IMG/VR virus record: IMGVR_UViG_2609459833_000015 | Span: 1 to 17,614 of that record | Length of the DNA: 17,614 nucleotides | Reading direction: 5' to 3' (one strand) | Source: a virus | Taxonomy: Duplodnaviria; Heunggongvirae; Uroviricota; Caudoviricetes | Shown: one piece after another, positions 5,525-9,844 of the stretch | How positions within the stretch are numbered: the first letter of the stretch is position 1 | Layout of the letters: the number at the start of each line of letters is the position of its first letter | The notes under the pieces: model-generated | The model's database searches: none | What the model was told of the DNA's origin: nothing | What the model saw: only the letters and a program-made list of their open reading frames with translations | Position numbers and translations under genes: made by a program

Positions 5525-5745
5525 GCCACACCTCCCAGACGCTTAAACATTTTTCCGGAGCAAAAGGCTATAAGCGGCATACTGACGCGGTAATTACGGC
5601 CCAGCGGTTCACAAACCACCTTCTGACATTCACGGTCAACCAGGCTGACACGTAGAACATGCCCTGCAGGCGTGGTGTACCACTGACCAGGACGAGGACA
5701 ACGGAAAGTCTGATTGGTAAACCGTTTGAAAATATTCCGGATCAT
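5521..5745 (-). CDS. Hypothetical small Cys-containing protein
   Basis: ATG 5745 overlaps the Rha stop (ATGA); SD AAGGGGG five nt upstream; 74 aa. Confidence 0.4.
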   Translation of the reverse strand: MIRNIFKRFTNQTFRCPRPGQWYTTPAGHVLRVSLVDRECQKVVCEPLGRNYRVSMPLIAFCSGKMFKRLGGVA

Positions 5746-6287
5746 TTGCGCCCCCTTACCTCTGAAGGGTTCAGCGACAAATTTATGAGACTGGCCAGTA
5801 GCGCCGCGTCGTTGATGCGGTCATACAGACTTACAGCCAGCGGGGATTCGGCTTTTGCCAACATGGGATAAAGCTGCTGCAGCCAGACCTGATGAATTGA
5901 TGAAATGTAGGAATAGAGAACGCTGGCGTTATGTGCAACGTCGCTCAGTACAGAGGGATTTGAAAGCTGTTTCTCCATCTGGTTAAAGGCATTGATGTAT
6001 GCCTCTTTGAACTGGGCAGCACGTTTACCCGTGAAGCCCATGGCAAGAAACGCAAAACCGTCGCGGGTGATTTGATAGCAAGGTAGTTTGCGGCCTGTGC
6101 AATCGGTGTAATCACTCACCGAAAAATTGCGGGAAGTGAATGATGCAGAGCATTCAAGCGTGCGGATCTTTTTCAATACATCGTCATGCTGCTTGCAGAA
6201 ATATTCGGCAACGGCCAAAGAAGAAGTAACAGCCTGACCATCAACGATGGCAATTTCAGGTTGAGTGAGGGTTGGGATCGTAGCCAT
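5742..6287 (-). CDS. Rha-family phage regulatory protein
   Basis: FSVSDYTDCTGRKLPCYQITRDGFAFLAMGFTGKRAAQFKEAYINAFNQME matches the Rha family core as recalled; ATG 6287 with SD GGAGG; the track ORF 5742..6485 has a non-conserved N-terminal extension. Confidence 0.85.
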   Translation of the reverse strand: MATIPTLTQPEIAIVDGQAVTSSLAVAEYFCKQHDDVLKKIRTLECSASFTSRNFSVSDYTDCTGRKLPCYQITRDGFAFLAMGFTGKRAAQFKEAYINAFNQMEKQLSNPSVLSDVAHNASVLYSYISSIHQVWLQQLYPMLAKAESPLAVSLYDRINDAALLASLINLSLNPSEVRGRK

Positions 6288-6487
6288 GATGGCAGCCTCC
6301 GTTGACTGTGGAAAACTTCCACCACCGGAGCTGCGAAACACACAGGTGGCAGACGTACAGGGTTCGCGTACCGGCGTCAACAGACACCGGCGAGCCTTTC
6401 GGCTCCCCTGCACACCCCACCATAATTCTGGAGTGAGGAAACGCGCGCAAAAAAACCGCTGAAGCGTCATATATCGCATTGACAATT

Positions 6488-6883
6488 TCAGGACGCCAAT
6501 CCCGGCACCCGCTTTATAAGGTGCAGAGCAGTGTAACGTCCCGAAATTGCAGAATCAATATGCTGGTGGTCCTTCACACTCAACAAAATCACGCCTGAAT
6601 TTCCACAAAGGACTAAAGCACTCATGCGGGTAGTCTTTGCGAAGATAGATAACGCGCTGTGTTTCTGGCTCCCAACGAATAACATGGACATAAAGCCCTC
6701 TTCCGTCACGAAACCAGCGGTTAAGTTCCTGCACAACTCGCCCCCCACAGTCAGGTAAAGTTCTCTGTGGTTACTTACAGCCAGGTGATTTGGTAATCTG
6801 CATTCATGCCGTAACAACAGGTGTTCAGCGACGCTGACCACCAGCTGTTGCGACAAACGGTTATTTGCCGTTAAACTATTCAT
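6488..6883 (-). CDS. Hypothetical protein
   Basis: ATG 6883 overlaps the upstream stop (ATGA); SD GGAG in TGTGGAGAAACTAACGC; no family recognised. Confidence 0.35.
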   Translation of the reverse strand: MNSLTANNRLSQQLVVSVAEHLLLRHECRLPNHLAVSNHRELYLTVGGELCRNLTAGFVTEEGFMSMLFVGSQKHSALSIFAKTTRMSALVLCGNSGVILLSVKDHQHIDSAISGRYTALHLIKRVPGLAS

Positions 6884-7772: not shown

Positions 7773-8399
7773 ATGGAAACGGTTGGTCAGCGTATAAAAG
7801 CTCTGAGAAGAGTTACCGGAACGTCCCAGAAAGAATTGGGTAAATTTTGTGGAGTAAGCGACGTTGCTGTGGGGTACTGGGAGAAAGACATCAATACCCC
7901 TGGTGGGGAGGCACTTTCGAAATTAGCGAAGTTCTTCAATACGTCAATAGATTACATTCTTTATGGTGCTGAGTTTGAAGGCAAACTCGTCACAAACATG
8001 CGCAGAGTTCCTGTAATATCGTGGGTTCAGGCTGGGCAGTTTACTGAGTGCAGGGCAGCAGAAGTGTTTAGTGAAGTGGACAAGTGGGTAGATACATCAT
8101 TAAAGATTGGTGATAACTCATTTGCATTAGAGGTTAAAGGTGACTCCATGACTAACCCTAATGGCCTCCCAACAATACCAGAAGGCGCAACAGTGATTGT
8201 AGATCCAGATGCAGAACCTCGTCATGGAAAAATAGTCATCGCTCGACTTGATGGAACAAACGAAGCTACAGTAAAAAAATTAGTCATCGATGGCCCTCAA
8301 AAGTTTTTAGTGCCATTAAATCCTCGGTATCCCAACATCCCTATCAATGGTAATTGCCTTATCATTGGTGTAGTCAAAGGAGTTCAATACGAACTCTAA
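7773..8399 (+). CDS. CI-like repressor (XRE-family HTH N-terminus, S24 LexA-like peptidase C-terminus)
   Basis: N-terminal HTH QKELGKFCGVSDVAVGYWE; C-terminal GDSM Ser-nucleophile motif and downstream Lys; 208 aa; divergent from cro-like gene. Confidence 0.85.
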   Translation: METVGQRIKALRRVTGTSQKELGKFCGVSDVAVGYWEKDINTPGGEALSKLAKFFNTSIDYILYGAEFEGKLVTNMRRVPVISWVQAGQFTECRAAEVFSEVDKWVDTSLKIGDNSFALEVKGDSMTNPNGLPTIPEGATVIVDPDAEPRHGKIVIARLDGTNEATVKKLVIDGPQKFLVPLNPRYPNIPINGNCLIIGVVKGVQYEL

Positions 8400-8605: not shown

Positions 8606-8881
8606 ATGAAAGTCCAGATTTTAAACAATAACTGTGAAGTCGTTTGGTCATACGACATAGCCGCCCCTGTAGATCAGAGCGGCGATAGCTGGACCAATGG
8701 GAAACATCAGATTATGGCTGGAGTTGTGTTCTCTTTACGCCGTGCTTTGGAACAGGCTGAAGTATTTCCATCAGACCCTGAATGGAAATGGCCTTTTTCT
8801 ATTTGTCCAAATTCGGAGAGCACATTTCAGAAAATTGGTCAGAAAGTCGCACTCGAAGAGCATCAGCCAACTGTTTCCTGA
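8606..8881 (+). CDS. Hypothetical protein (first ORF downstream of CI)
   Basis: ATG 8606 with SD AGGTG six nt upstream; 91 aa, acidic, Trp-rich; 3' end overlaps the convergent ORF 8799..9044 by 83 bp and contains a plus-strand hairpin plus T-run. Confidence 0.35.
   Translation: MKVQILNNNCEVVWSYDIAAPVDQSGDSWTNGKHQIMAGVVFSLRRALEQAEVFPSDPEWKWPFSICPNSESTFQKIGQKVALEEHQPTVS
8764..8798 (+). terminator. Candidate intrinsic terminator (plus strand)
   Basis: ATTTCCAT (8764-8771), 10-nt loop, ATGGAAAT (8782-8789), then GGCC and TTTTT (8794-8798); AU-rich stem so likely weak. Confidence 0.3.
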
Positions 8882-9044
8882 TTTTTTCAGGTAACTCGTC
8901 GGCATCGCAGAAACAACAACGCTCGATCATGTTGAAAGCCGATTCGTAGAACTGTTTCTGCTGAGTGTCGCTGAGACAGGAAAAGAGCGACGTTACGATG
9001 ATTTTATTAATTGCATTATCAAGTTCTTTTTCATCAAAAGTCAT
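8799..9044 (-). CDS. Hypothetical protein (convergent to CI)
   Basis: ATG 9044 with SD AAGGA seven nt upstream; 81 aa with helical-looking hydrophilic composition; no family recognised. Confidence 0.4.
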   Translation of the reverse strand: MTFDEKELDNAINKIIVTSLFSCLSDTQQKQFYESAFNMIERCCFCDADELPEKIRKQLADALRVRLSDQFSEMCSPNLDK

Positions 9045-9284
9045 TTGATTTTCCTTTTATGTATACGGGCTTAAAAGGATACCACCGAGCCTGAAGTGGT
9101 GAAAAGACAGGCACATAACAGCTAAGTATTTTCAACCAAAGAGAATCCTTAGCGTTGTGGTGAATGCGGCTCAGCGCACGCGGGTTAAGGTTGAGGCTGA
9201 CAGTCGACCTTCTGTGGATACCCACCCGTCTGGTGTGCAACCTTCGCCAGGCACCGGGAGGCACCCGGCACCACAACTTTATGC

Positions 9285-9344
9285 TGTGTGTAGTCCTGGC
9301 GGTACCAGTTTGTACCCTTGCTTCCGGCTGGTACCGTCCTTTTT
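9285..9344 (+). ncRNA. DicF-like small RNA candidate ending in an intrinsic terminator
   Basis: 11-bp stem GGCGGTACCAG (9298-9308) paired with CTGGTACCGTC (9328-9338) followed by TTTTT (9340-9344); 5' arm GGCGGUACCAGUUUGUACCC closely resembles the DicF segment GGCGGUAUCAGUUUUACUCC as I recall it; 5' end not determinable. Confidence 0.45.
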
Positions 9345-9481
9345 ACAAAACAGAGAAGAGCATCACCGGACGACGGGCTCATAACCCAATCCATCCGGGC
9401 GGCAGTCACCGCAGGTGTTCTTCTCTGTTTTGTGGAGAAACTAACCGACCTTGCAGGGTCGATATGATGAGGAGCAGCAAA

Positions 9482-9844
9482 ATGGCTAGCGAACGCAGTA
9501 CTGATGTGCAGGCATTTATCGGGGAGCTGGACGGCGGCGTATTTGAAACCAAAATCGGCGCAGTTCTCAGTGAAGTCGCTTCCGGTGTGATGAACACGAA
9601 AACCAAAGGTAAGGTCTCACTCAACCTGGAAATCGAACCATTTGATGAGAACCGTGTGAAAATCAAACACAAACTCTCATATGTTCGCCCGACTAACCGC
9701 GGGAAAATTTCCGAAGAAGACACCACCGAAACGCCGATGTATGTCAATCGCGGTGGTCGCCTGACTATTCTGCAGGAAGACCAGGGACAATTACTGACTC
9801 TTGCCGGTGAACCTGACGGAAAACTCCGCGCAGCAGGTCATTAA
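9482..9844 (+). CDS. YfdP-like prophage protein
   Basis: 120 aa from ATG 9482 (SD GAGGAG 9469-9474), matching YfdP length and position upstream of YfdQ/R-like genes; alternative start ATG 9464. Confidence 0.5.
   Translation: MASERSTDVQAFIGELDGGVFETKIGAVLSEVASGVMNTKTKGKVSLNLEIEPFDENRVKIKHKLSYVRPTNRGKISEEDTTETPMYVNRGGRLTILQEDQGQLLTLAGEPDGKLRAAGH

What the first reader, a model, noticed from the sequence alone, without database searches (positions are those of the whole stretch)
9285..9344. DicF-like sRNA hairpin/terminator in the leftward early operon
An 11-bp stem (GGCGGTACCAG / CTGGTACCGTC) followed by TTTTT forms a strong intrinsic terminator. Its 5' arm and the next few bases closely resemble the DicF segment GGCGGUAUCAGUUUUACUCC as I remember it, but the loop and 3' arm differ. 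If this is a divergent DicF paralogue it would regulate host targets such as ftsZ on prophage induction, and the diverged 3' portion could mean altered target specificity.
Basis: partly seen in the sequence, partly recalled or inferred. Interest (0 to 1): 0.55.

Follow-up and report, generated by a model that had tools for sequence, protein, structure and literature searches.

The report
Prophage RprA-seed, DicF-type terminator module
The hairpin is a real transcription terminator that ends a prophage small-RNA unit; it is a distant relative of DicF, but the stretch in front of it carries the seed of the host small RNA RprA, so curli/biofilm genes are the likelier target, not ftsZ.

Summary
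Bases 9298-9338 form an 11-13 bp hairpin followed by UUUUU (9340-9344). In the 91%-identical copy in E. coli K-12 prophage e14 (annotated as protein YmfH), published Term-seq places an RNA 3' end on the last U.

It is not DicF by Rfam (15.7 bits; cut-off 48; true DicF 76.7). DicF's 5' seed and its loop are absent. It is nevertheless related to DicF. Prophage variants sitting in the dicF slot carry the window's 5' flank with DicF-like stems and score 29-43 bits. A dicF locus also aligns straight through the upstream domain into this module.

The hairpin is the 3' end of a STnc100-like RNA (9132-9347; 39.5 bits, E 5e-7). That RNA's 5' domain is a covarying pseudoknotted fold.

The unexpected part lies just 5' of the hairpin. 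Bases 9282-9295 (UGCUGUGUGUAGUC) are identical to RprA nt 62-75, the validated anti-csgD/ydaM seed. Seed plus terminator copies the layout of processed RprA.

Best reading: a cis terminator in front of the yfdP-int operon that also yields an RprA-mimicking small RNA of about 63 nt. The trans function is inferred, not shown.

The parts
9081..9114 (+). Hairpin ACCACCGAGCCUGAAGUGGU plus 14 nt. It is the probable 3' end of the upstream (cI-side) transcript, or a processing site that makes the 5' end of the RNA described here.
   Evidence: In the e14 copy, Term-seq places an abundant 3' end at ...GAAAAGACAGGCAC| (MG1655 1201423, - strand), which corresponds to window 9114. Homology between e14 and the window starts at 9078.
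9132..9347 (+). STnc100-like RNA as delimited by the Rfam model: a 5' structured domain, a linker/seed and a terminator.
   Evidence: RF02076 scores 39.5 bits (gathering score 47), E = 4.6e-7, with the full model 1-206 matched.
9154..9277 (+). Pseudoknotted core domain. P1 pairs 9154-9162 with 9269-9277. H1 is 9166-9184. The pseudoknot pairs 9187-9193 (AAGGUUG) with 9238-9244 (CAACCUU), which lies in the loop of H4 (9230-9251). H5 is 9254-9268 (CCGGG AGGCA CCCGG).
   Evidence: RNAfold of 9120-9350 gives -90.9 kcal/mol, z = -3.4. P1 and H5 covary: score 0.262 against 0.131 in shuffles, 0 of 500 shuffles reach it. Pseudoknot strands match their own partner better than other sequences' partners (17.4 against 13.2), with 36 distinct strand sequences.
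9282..9295 (+). UGCUGUGUGUAGUC, identical to RprA nt 62-75 (the anti-csgD site Ib / anti-ydaM seed). It is the proposed seed of the small RNA, and 9282 is the proposed 5' end of the processed form.
   Evidence: There is one exact match in the window. The RprA sequence comes from PMC5606850 and PMC7311995. The RprA-csgD/ydaM pairing regions come from PMC3465796. In e14 a Term-seq 3' end falls at ...CACCACAACUUUA|, corresponding to window 9281. The predicted duplex with the csgD 5' UTR is -23.9 kcal/mol, against -15.6 +/- 2.8 for shuffles.
9298..9338 (+). The terminator hairpin, which is the reported finding: arms GGCGGUACCAG and CUGGUACCGUC, loop 9309-9327.
   Evidence: Folding result. The stem is kept through wobble and compensatory changes, and is replaced outright in ST64B (GUCGGCGUC/GACGCCGAC). 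The loop is free to vary.
9340..9344 (+). U5 tract, the site where the transcript ends.
   Evidence: In e14 the Term-seq 3' end at MG1655 1201195 (- strand) falls on the last U of CCGCCCUUUUU.
9345..9433 (+). Long conserved hairpin in the read-through leader of yfdP. The outer arms are ACAAAACAGAGAAGAG and CUCUUCUCUGUUUUGU. An inner hairpin carries GGG-CUCAUAA-CCC (9375-9387).
   Evidence: RNAfold of 9340-9490 gives -62.9 kcal/mol, z = -6.6, and the stem can extend over the U tract. The arms and the inner motif are conserved in e14, ST64B and many viral contigs, while the interior varies.
9482..9844 (+). yfdP, the first gene of the leftward operon downstream of the terminator.
   Evidence: ORF list. 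Annotated as SfV orf32 and as YfdP.

Best explanation
The hairpin at 9298-9338 with its U5 tract is a Rho-independent terminator with two roles.

In cis, it stops most transcription that enters from the immunity side, before the long leader hairpin and the yfdP-yfdQ...xis-int operon. Read-through transcripts express that operon.

In trans, the terminated RNA is a member of the prophage STnc100-like class: a pseudoknotted 5' domain (9154-9277), a short single-stranded stretch, then the terminator. Cleavage just 3' of the domain (after 9281) would release a 63-nt RNA (9282-9344). Its 5' end is UGCUGUGUGUAGUC, identical to the core seed of the host small RNA RprA. Its body is a DicF-type GGCGG...CCG(U/C)C hairpin with a U tail. 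This is the layout of processed RprA (its last 47 nt) and of DicF, both of which are Hfq-dependent.

The predicted action is RprA-like: pairing with csgD mRNA site Ib (ACUACACACAGCA) and with ydaM/dgcM. A lysogen would then damp curli/biofilm expression independently of Rcs/Cpx signalling. Action on ftsZ is not predicted.

Shown: the hairpin; the seed identity; the homology relations; transcript 3' ends at both boundaries in the e14 copy.
Inferred: a stable 63-nt species, Hfq binding, and regulation of csgD/ydaM.
For: 1. Terminator. The hairpin folds at -23.8 kcal/mol, z = -3.6. In K-12 e14 (90.9% identical), Term-seq 3' ends fall on the last U of the tract and at CAACUUUA|UGCUG (Adams et al. 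2021, PMC7815308, supplementary file 1).

2. Longer RNA. The Rfam STnc100 model spans 9132-9347 with E = 4.6e-7. The domain's helices and pseudoknot covary. Other family members carry quite different terminators, or a Shine-Dalgarno/ATG, in the same place.

3. Seed. Bases 9282-9295 equal RprA nt 62-75. Sister modules share 19-26 nt with RprA, for example AAAUAACGACAUUGCUGUGUGUAGUC against RprA AAACAACGA-AUUGCUGUGUGUAGUC.
   - In ST64B and 118970_sal3, which were found by overall similarity (77-79% identity), the flank is kept with one change while the stem is completely replaced.
   - RprA60-105 alone down-regulates csgD. Site Ib and ydaM pairing use this region (PMC3465796). Processed RprA is the last 47 nt (PMC9262595).
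   - The window seed pairs with the csgD leader at -23.9 kcal/mol; 1.2% of shuffles do as well. DicF's 5' part does not pair.

4. Kinship with DicF. Rfam DicF scores fall in a graded series: 76.7, then 42.8/39.1/38.1/29.2, then 15.7. The upstream block and the STnc100-like domain are shared with dicF loci. L215 aligns with the dicF locus L006 at 74% over 171 nt, running into the module.

5. The element is widespread. 1,823 of 5,426 complete E. coli genomes hold at least 80% of 9100-9482.
Against: - No experiment shows a stable 63-nt fragment, Hfq binding or target regulation. The 3' end at 9281 shows only that the upstream fragment ends there.
- In this window the RprA match is 14 nt. As a single-window statistic it is weak: 15 of 200 shuffled RprA sequences reach the same local score.
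- The large census of modules was collected with a pattern that imposes part of the flank, so its conservation is partly circular.
- mEp460 and the other phages that match only 9297-9482 keep the hairpin, the long leader hairpin and yfdP; in mEp460, the one examined, the RprA-like flank is missing. The hairpin is therefore maintained for its cis role alone in some lineages.
- The U tail is only five U, as in DicF.
- Neither Rfam DicF, RprA nor STnc100 reaches its gathering score.
- No convincing promoter was found on the + strand between 9045 and 9300, so the origin of the transcript is open.
Confidence: 0.55

Rival explanations
1. It is purely a cis-acting terminator or attenuator in the leader of the leftward (yfdP-int) operon. 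The conserved flank is then a cis signal, such as a processing or pause site, and its identity with RprA has no trans consequence.
For: The hairpin sits between the immunity region and the operon. It is followed by further conserved leader structures. mEp460 keeps the hairpin without the flank, and other phages match only from the hairpin onward. Stems are replaced by unrelated terminators in related RNAs.
Against: A cis role does not explain why 14-26 nt identical to the validated RprA seed are kept in front of stems that are otherwise free to change. DicF, the homologous element, is a proven trans-acting small RNA made in the same way (PMC5069750).
Confidence: 0.3
2. It is a divergent DicF that still represses ftsZ and inhibits cell division.
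For: The stem base and tail are shared. The 5' arm matches 14 of 15 bases. It has the same position in the leftward operon as dicF. It is homologous to DicF-slot variants.
Against: Rfam DicF scores 15.7 bits against a cut-off of 48. DicF's 5' seed is replaced. The loop, which in DicF carries the ftsZ-complementary ...UUUUACUCCG..., reads UUUGUACCCUUG here and differs again in e14. No dicB is present. Duplex energies with the ftsZ initiation region are no better than shuffles, although the same holds for real DicF, so that test is uninformative.
Confidence: 0.05
3. The region codes for protein, as annotated: YmfH in K-12, 'hypothetical protein' from PGAP, and the mechanical ORFs 9157-9384 and 9164-9844.
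For: RefSeq annotates a CDS over the homologous stretch in K-12 and in many other genomes.
Against: The stretch matches a structured-RNA model. Its variation is compensatory in helices and in a pseudoknot. Copies differ by indels that are not multiples of three in the hairpin loop. Transcripts end inside the supposed CDS.
Confidence: 0.03
4. It is a nut-like antitermination site: a boxA-like UGCUGUGUGUAG followed by a hairpin, recognised by a phage or host factor.
For: It lies at the head of the leftward operon, like nutL. Its layout is a linear motif plus a hairpin.
Against: The hairpin is long, variable and followed by a U tract at which transcripts actually end. There is no second copy in the rightward operon. 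There is no similarity to HK022 put RNAs.
Confidence: 0.04

Closest known systems
DicF (Rfam RF00039), the Qin-type prophage small RNA of the dicBF operon
   Same: A short unit of single-stranded seed plus GGCGG...CCGCC hairpin plus U5, inside the leftward operon downstream of the cI-like repressor. The 3' end is made by intrinsic termination, and DicF's 5' end by RNase E processing (PMC5069750). It is homologous by position and flanks: both lie 3' of a GUUGUGG...CCACAAC-closed domain, and the same STnc100-like domain and upstream block occur at dicF loci. Intermediates exist.
   Different: It scores 15.7 bits against 48. DicF's 5' seed UUUCUGGUGACGUUU and its loop are not present. Here the module follows the STnc100-like domain, whereas in dicF loci that domain follows DicF. 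yfdP rather than dicB lies downstream.
RprA (Rfam RF00034), especially its processed 47-nt form (RprA60-105)
   Same: Identical core seed UGCUGUGUGUAGUC (RprA nt 62-75), placed directly 5' of a Rho-independent terminator. The upstream RNA part is removable. There is perfect complementarity to csgD site Ib.
   Different: There is no Rfam RprA match at E <= 10. The rpoS-pairing part (about nt 30-60) and the two 5' stem-loops are absent. The terminator hairpin is different. The locus is a prophage, not the core rprA locus with its Rcs/Cpx control.
STnc100 (Rfam RF02076) and the related PasD prophage small RNAs
   Same: The same conserved 5' domain (GGUGAAU ... CACCGGGAGGCACCCGGCACC, with closing helix P1), followed by a linker and a terminator. 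Both are encoded by lambdoid prophages.
   Different: It falls below the gathering score (39.5 against 47). It sits at the head of the leftward operon next to the immunity region, rather than near Q and the late genes as the Pas preprint describes for PasD and many STnc100 copies. Its 3' module is of the RprA/DicF type. PasD itself could not be compared, because no sequence is held.
StxS / lambda 6S-type RNAs: short transcripts made by a terminator at the head of a phage operon
   Same: A terminator that blocks a phage operon in the lysogen and, as a by-product, yields a regulatory small RNA (abstract of PMC7547250, seen).
   Different: The operon differs (leftward/early rather than PR' late). 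No Q-type antitermination context is shown here. There is no sequence relation.

Membership tests
DicF (RF00039) | Rfam covariance model at or above the gathering score (48 bits) | tested here: not met
   15.7 bits, E = 1.3 over 701 nt. Genuine DicF scores 76.7. DicF-slot variants score 42.8, 39.1, 38.1 and 29.2.
DicF (RF00039) | 5' single-stranded seed UUUCUGGUGACGUUU, used for xylR/pykA pairing | tested here: not met
   The window has UUUAUGCUGUGUGUAGUCCU instead. In a locus-level alignment it is positionally homologous but diverged. The role of the seed is taken from PMC5069750.
DicF (RF00039) | ftsZ-complementary sequence in the hairpin loop / 3' half | tested here: not met
   The loop reads UUUGUACCCUUGCUUCCGG, against DicF's UUUUACUCCGUGA. 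It also varies between near-identical copies. Duplex-energy tests were uninformative even for true DicF.
DicF (RF00039) | GGCGG/CCGCC-based terminator hairpin plus U5 that generates the 3' end | tested here: met
   A Term-seq 3' end falls on the last U in the e14 copy.
DicF (RF00039) | Location in the leftward operon downstream of a cI-like repressor | tested here: met
   The order is cI, then the element, then yfdP ... xis, int, compared with cI, then DicF, dicB, xis, int.
DicF (RF00039) | Followed by dicB (the dicBF operon) | tested here: not met
   tblastn of DicB against the window gives only chance hits, E > 1.
DicF (RF00039) | 5' end made by RNase E processing of a longer transcript | not testable with these tools
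   The only hint is a Term-seq 3' end at CAACUUUA|UGCUG in e14, directly 5' of the module.
RprA (RF00034) | Rfam covariance model match | tested here: not met
   No RprA hit at E <= 10 in 8900-9600.
RprA (RF00034) | Conserved core seed nt 62-75 (anti-csgD Ib / anti-ydaM) | tested here: met
   Exact 14-nt identity at 9282-9295. Sister modules share 19-26 nt.
RprA (RF00034) | Seed immediately 5' of a Rho-independent terminator, as in the processed 47-nt form | tested here: met
   The seed ends 2 nt before the hairpin. The definition of RprAproc is from PMC9262595 and of RprA60-105 from PMC3465796.
RprA (RF00034) | rpoS-activating region and the two 5' stem-loops | tested here: not met
   The local alignment with RprA covers nt 62-75 only.
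RprA (RF00034) | Complementarity to csgD 5' UTR site Ib | tested here: met
   13-14 contiguous pairs with ACUACACACAGCA. Energy -23.9 kcal/mol, against -15.6 +/- 2.8 for shuffles, of which 1.2% reach it. This is computational only.
STnc100 (RF02076) | Rfam covariance model at or above the gathering score (47 bits) | tested here: not met
   39.5 bits, E = 4.6e-7, full-length match at 9132-9347.
STnc100 (RF02076) | Conserved domain: P1 GGUG/CACC closing helix, H1, H5 CCGGGAGGCACCCGG, then a 3' terminator | tested here: met
   All elements are present. They covary across 28 diverse sequences. The pseudoknot is supported by 36 distinct strand pairs.
Intrinsic (Rho-independent) terminator | Stable GC-rich hairpin directly followed by a U tract, with transcripts ending there | tested here: met
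   The 3' end is mapped in the 91%-identical e14 copy. It has not been measured for this exact sequence.

The most novel reading that the evidence does not exclude
DicF, this element and processed RprA may belong to one family of exchangeable 'seed + terminator' cassettes. Lambdoid prophages carry them next to a pseudoknotted STnc100-type domain. Many copies, including the one annotated as protein YmfH in E. coli K-12 e14, carry RprA's exact anti-csgD/ydaM seed. A large fraction of E. coli lysogens would then express a phage-borne RprA mimic that rewires the curli/biofilm (and possibly RpoS-linked) network independently of Rcs/Cpx signalling. The STnc100 domain itself would be a cis-acting platform for processing or regulation, not merely small-RNA body.
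Probability: 0.35. Interest if true: 0.8.

Novelty: new variant of a known kind. Interest (0 to 1): 0.62.

Why it matters
If the module acts in trans, roughly a third of sequenced E. coli genomes, the laboratory strain K-12 included, carry an unrecognised second source of the RprA seed. That would matter for interpreting rprA deletion phenotypes, for csgD/curli and c-di-GMP (ydaM/dgcM) regulation, and for how prophages tune host biofilm behaviour.

It would also give DicF an evolutionary context, as one allele of a mosaic cassette family. It would show that 'STnc100' RNAs are composites of a conserved pseudoknotted domain and swappable seed/terminator ends.

At the least, the result corrects an annotation: YmfH and the many 'hypothetical proteins' at this position are RNA, not protein. 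It also places a working terminator at the head of the leftward operon of SfV/ST64B/e14-type phages.

Tried and rejected
1. HK022 put-like antiterminator RNA. I read putL and putR from the HK022 genome and compared them with the window. No similarity was found.

2. Hybridisation energies of the module with the ftsZ initiation region, both full-length and in 16-nt windows. These had no discriminating power: authentic DicF was itself no better than shuffles. The test was dropped as uninformative.

3. Literature on ymfH. Nothing relevant was found, apart from a Reg-Seq note that the intE-xisE-ymfH promoter is mostly silent.

4. The K-12 RefSeq annotation of e14 shows no ncRNA at this locus.

5. 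The dRNA-seq transcription-start paper (Thomason et al. 2015) is not held, and the supplements of the RIL-seq paper (Melamed et al. 2016) are not held. The 5' end and Hfq chimeras therefore could not be checked.

6. The supplement of the Pas small-RNA preprint holds no matching sequence, so identity with PasB or PasD could not be tested.

7. The promoter scan found no sigma-70-like site on the + strand in 9045-9300. My readings by eye were weak, so I do not claim a promoter.

8. A second E. coli genome search added only counts.

9. I looked for a STnc100-like domain upstream of DicF-like modules in dicF-slot loci. Rfam finds only the domain downstream. A different GUUGUGG...CCACAAC-closed domain sits upstream.

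Full report
CONTEXT. The window is a lambdoid prophage of the SfV/ST64B/e14 type. The intergenic stretch 9045-9482 is 99.1% identical to Shigella phage SfV and 100% identical to an E. coli chromosome. The cI-like repressor is on the + strand (7773-8399) and cro is on the - strand. The + strand beyond cI is therefore the 'leftward' operon: yfdP (9482-9844), yfdQ... xis, int. The finding lies in the 440-nt gap between a small divergently transcribed gene (8799-9044, - strand) and yfdP.

OBSERVATION. The hairpin is real. GGCGGUACCAG (9298-9308) pairs with CUGGUACCGUC (9328-9338) and is followed by C UUUUU (9339-9344). The energy for 9285-9350 is -23.8 kcal/mol, z = -3.6, with 0 of 200 shuffles as stable.

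The window matches DicF at 14 of 15 bases across UGGCGGUA.CAGUUU and again at the CCG.CCUUUUU end. Taken alone this is marginal: 5 of 100 shuffles reach the same score.

IT IS A WORKING TERMINATOR. E. coli K-12 carries a 90.9%-identical copy in prophage e14, annotated as the protein gene ymfH. The published Term-seq tables of Adams et al. 2021 (PMC7815308, supplementary file 1) list three RNA 3' ends there.
- One is at MG1655 1201195 (- strand), in ...CUGGUACCGCCCUUUUU|ACAAAACAGA. This is the last U of this hairpin's tail and corresponds to window 9344.
- A second is at 1201257, in ...CACCACAACUUUA|UGCUGUGUGU. This corresponds to window 9281.
- A third, abundant one is at 1201423, in ...GUGGUGAAAAGACAGGCAC|. 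This corresponds to window 9114.

WHAT THE HAIRPIN BELONGS TO. At a permissive threshold, Rfam places the whole STnc100 model (RF02076) on 9132-9347: 39.5 bits, gathering score 47, E = 4.6e-7. The hairpin is that model's terminator. DicF scores only 15.7 bits (gathering score 48, E = 1.3).

I scanned viral contigs for the domain's most conserved hairpin (CACCNGGAGGCACCNGGCACC). This returned more than 120 copies. Their common features are:
- a closing helix P1 (...GGUG / CACC...);
- hairpin H1;
- hairpin H5 (CCGGG-AGGCA-CCCGG);
- a pseudoknot between the segment after H1 and the loop of H4.

The pseudoknot strands differ in sequence from subtype to subtype but stay complementary: 36 distinct strands, with an own-partner score of 17.4 against 13.2 for other sequences' partners. 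P1 and H5 covary: 0.262 against 0.131 in shuffles, 0 of 500 reaching it, and slid controls at most 0.19.

In the window the parts are as follows. P1 pairs 9154-9162 with 9269-9277. The pseudoknot pairs 9187-9193 with 9238-9244. H5 is 9254-9268.

What follows the domain is interchangeable: many unrelated terminators, or a Shine-Dalgarno and ATG directly. Many copies have a strong sigma-70 promoter directly 5' of P1. The window type does not.

RELATION TO DICF. In genuine dicF loci (mEp460_ev081, Tritos) the order is cI, small ORFs, DicF, an STnc100-like domain (40.1 bits), then dicB. Window 9138-9183 and 9252-9275 are homologous to that dicF-dicB spacer. Window 9030-9120 is homologous (75%) to a block upstream of dicF.

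Some prophages carry variants in the dicF slot itself. In these, the window's 5' flank precedes a DicF-like stem, and the 3' flank is DicF's own. An example from L120 is UUGCUGUGUGUAGUCCUGGCGGCAUCAG...CUGAUGUCCGCCCUUUUUAAAGUGAAUUUUG. L068 has the window's exact 5' arm, and L194 has DicF's exact 5' arm. Their Rfam DicF scores (42.8, 39.1, 38.1, 29.2) fill the gap between true DicF (76.7) and the window (15.7).

Locus L215 aligns with the dicF locus L006 at 74% over 171 nt. The alignment runs through a shared upstream domain and into the module. It places AUUGCUGUGUGUAGUCUUGGCGG opposite DicF's UUUUCUG-GUGACGU-UUGGCGG. The window element is therefore a relative of DicF in the sense of a mosaic cassette family, but it fails DicF's defining tests. 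There is no dicB.

THE FLANK IS THE RPRA SEED. A full-text search for the flank sequence found it inside E. coli RprA...AAACAACGAAUUGCUGUGUGUAGUCUUUGCCCAUCUCCCACGAUGGGCUUUUUUU. Window 9282-9295 equals RprA nt 62-75. e14 shares 18 of 19 nt, L213 shares 20 of 21, and L120 shares 24 of 26 including the upstream AACGA.

Published work shows the following.
- RprA is cleaved to a 47-nt 3' form (PMC9262595).
- RprA60-105, the 'highly conserved region', suffices to down-regulate csgD.
- csgD site I (-119..-84) pairs with RprA nt 60-97, with site Ib CAGC(-90..-87) proven by mutation.
- ydaM pairs with RprA nt 45-75 (PMC3465796).

The K-12 csgD leader contains ACUACACACAGCAGUG. The window flank pairs with it contiguously at -23.9 kcal/mol, against -15.6 +/- 2.8 for shuffles (1.2% reach it). 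RprA gives -28.5 and DicF's 5' end gives -11.5.

The e14 3' end at CAACUUUA|UGCUG sits directly 5' of the UGCUG seed, close to where RprA is cut. The released RNA would be 63 nt in the window (9282-9344).

Two Salmonella phages give evidence that does not depend on my search pattern. ST64B and 118970_sal3 were found by overall similarity (77-79% identity). They keep the flank with one change (AUUGCUGUGUGAAGUCUUG). Their stem is entirely replaced (GUCGGCGUC/GACGCCGAC), yet still ends in U5.

In the pattern-based census, 68 of 71 distinct modules have a hairpin of at most -10 kcal/mol followed by at least four U. The flank's conservation in that set is partly imposed by the pattern.

CAVEATS. 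The trans function is inferred. On its own, the 14-nt match in this window is not significant: 15 of 200 shuffles reach it. mEp460 and the other phages that match only 9297-9482 keep the hairpin, the long leader hairpin and yfdP; in mEp460, the one examined, the flank is missing. There is thus a mosaic joint at the 5' foot of the hairpin, and the hairpin has a cis role of its own. The origin of the transcript is unresolved. It could be an own promoter, or processing of the cI-side transcript at 9114.

DOWNSTREAM. Read-through RNA folds into a long hairpin (9345-9433) that can extend over the U tract: -62.9 kcal/mol, z = -6.6. Its arms, and an inner GGG-CUCAUAA-CCC hairpin, are conserved across many loci. 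It lies just upstream of the yfdP ribosome-binding site.

VERDICT. The DicF interpretation is partly supported: the element is related to DicF, but it is not DicF and not an ftsZ regulator. The best-supported reading is a terminator that closes an STnc100-like prophage RNA and, together with the RprA seed in front of it, forms an RprA-mimicking, DicF-type small-RNA cassette. No paper in the held library describes a prophage RprA-like RNA. That is not proof of novelty.

Noticed in passing
window 6342-6427 (-) and 6449-6524 (-): Rfam gathering-level matches to C4 antisense RNA (65.1 bits) and isrK (54.3 bits). They lie side by side in the rightward operon, upstream of the ORF at 5742-6485. This looks like a P1-immI / Salmonella isrK-type antirepressor control region.
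   Followed up: no
window 9154-9277; loci L009-L128: The STnc100 core domain has a strongly covarying pseudoknot (segment after H1 with the H4 loop) and near-invariant GGUGAAU / CACCGGGAGGCACCCGGCACC. It is followed either by a terminator or directly by a Shine-Dalgarno and ATG, a layout reminiscent of a cis-regulatory (riboswitch- or antiterminator-like) leader rather than a plain small RNA.
   Followed up: partly
L006 4051-4260 (dicF-dicB spacer of phage mEp460_ev081); same in L007: The spacer between dicF and dicB is an STnc100-like domain (40.1 bits) with a 12-bp P1 helix (UGUGAUGCGGUG / CACCGCAUCACA). The reported RNase III-made 72-nt DicF 3' end would fall in or near the 5' strand of this helix.
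   Followed up: partly
window 9345-9433 (inner motif 9375-9387): Conserved long leader hairpin whose inner loop, GGG-CUCAUAA-CCC, resembles a tRNA-Met anticodon stem-loop. The motif GACGGGCUCAUAACCCAAUCC recurs in many phage loci next to these modules.
   Followed up: partly
window 9081-9114 (+): Hairpin without a U tract. In e14 it marks a very abundant RNA 3' end (Term-seq read counts 109,099 and 285,136 on two condition sheets), probably the end of the cI-side transcript. It overlaps the 5' UTR of the divergent gene 8799-9044 (- strand).
   Followed up: partly
E. coli K-12 MG1655 1201069-1201380 (ymfH); homologous CDSs in more than 1,700 E. coli genomes: The annotated protein gene ymfH, and PGAP 'hypothetical protein' calls, cover this structured RNA and contain mapped transcript 3' ends. 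The CDS is probably spurious.
   Followed up: partly
L019, L028, L084 (3 copies each); L029, L051, L074 (2 copies 484 nt apart): Several viral contigs carry two or three STnc100-type domains in tandem, in the same orientation.
   Followed up: no
L155, L212, L227, L215, L228 (regions upstream of the module): Successive structured units share GUUGUGG. It is the 3' strand of an upstream hairpin (CACAAC...GUUGUG) and also the 5' strand of the next domain's P1 (GUUGUGG...CCACAAC). The two pairings are mutually exclusive, which hints at a conformational switch. tRNA genes or fragments often lie next to these leaders.
   Followed up: no
L047 9891-10069 (-) and L058 11327-11505 (-): RalA (RalR antitoxin small RNA) matches above the gathering score, in the same contigs as DicF-slot variants.
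   Followed up: no
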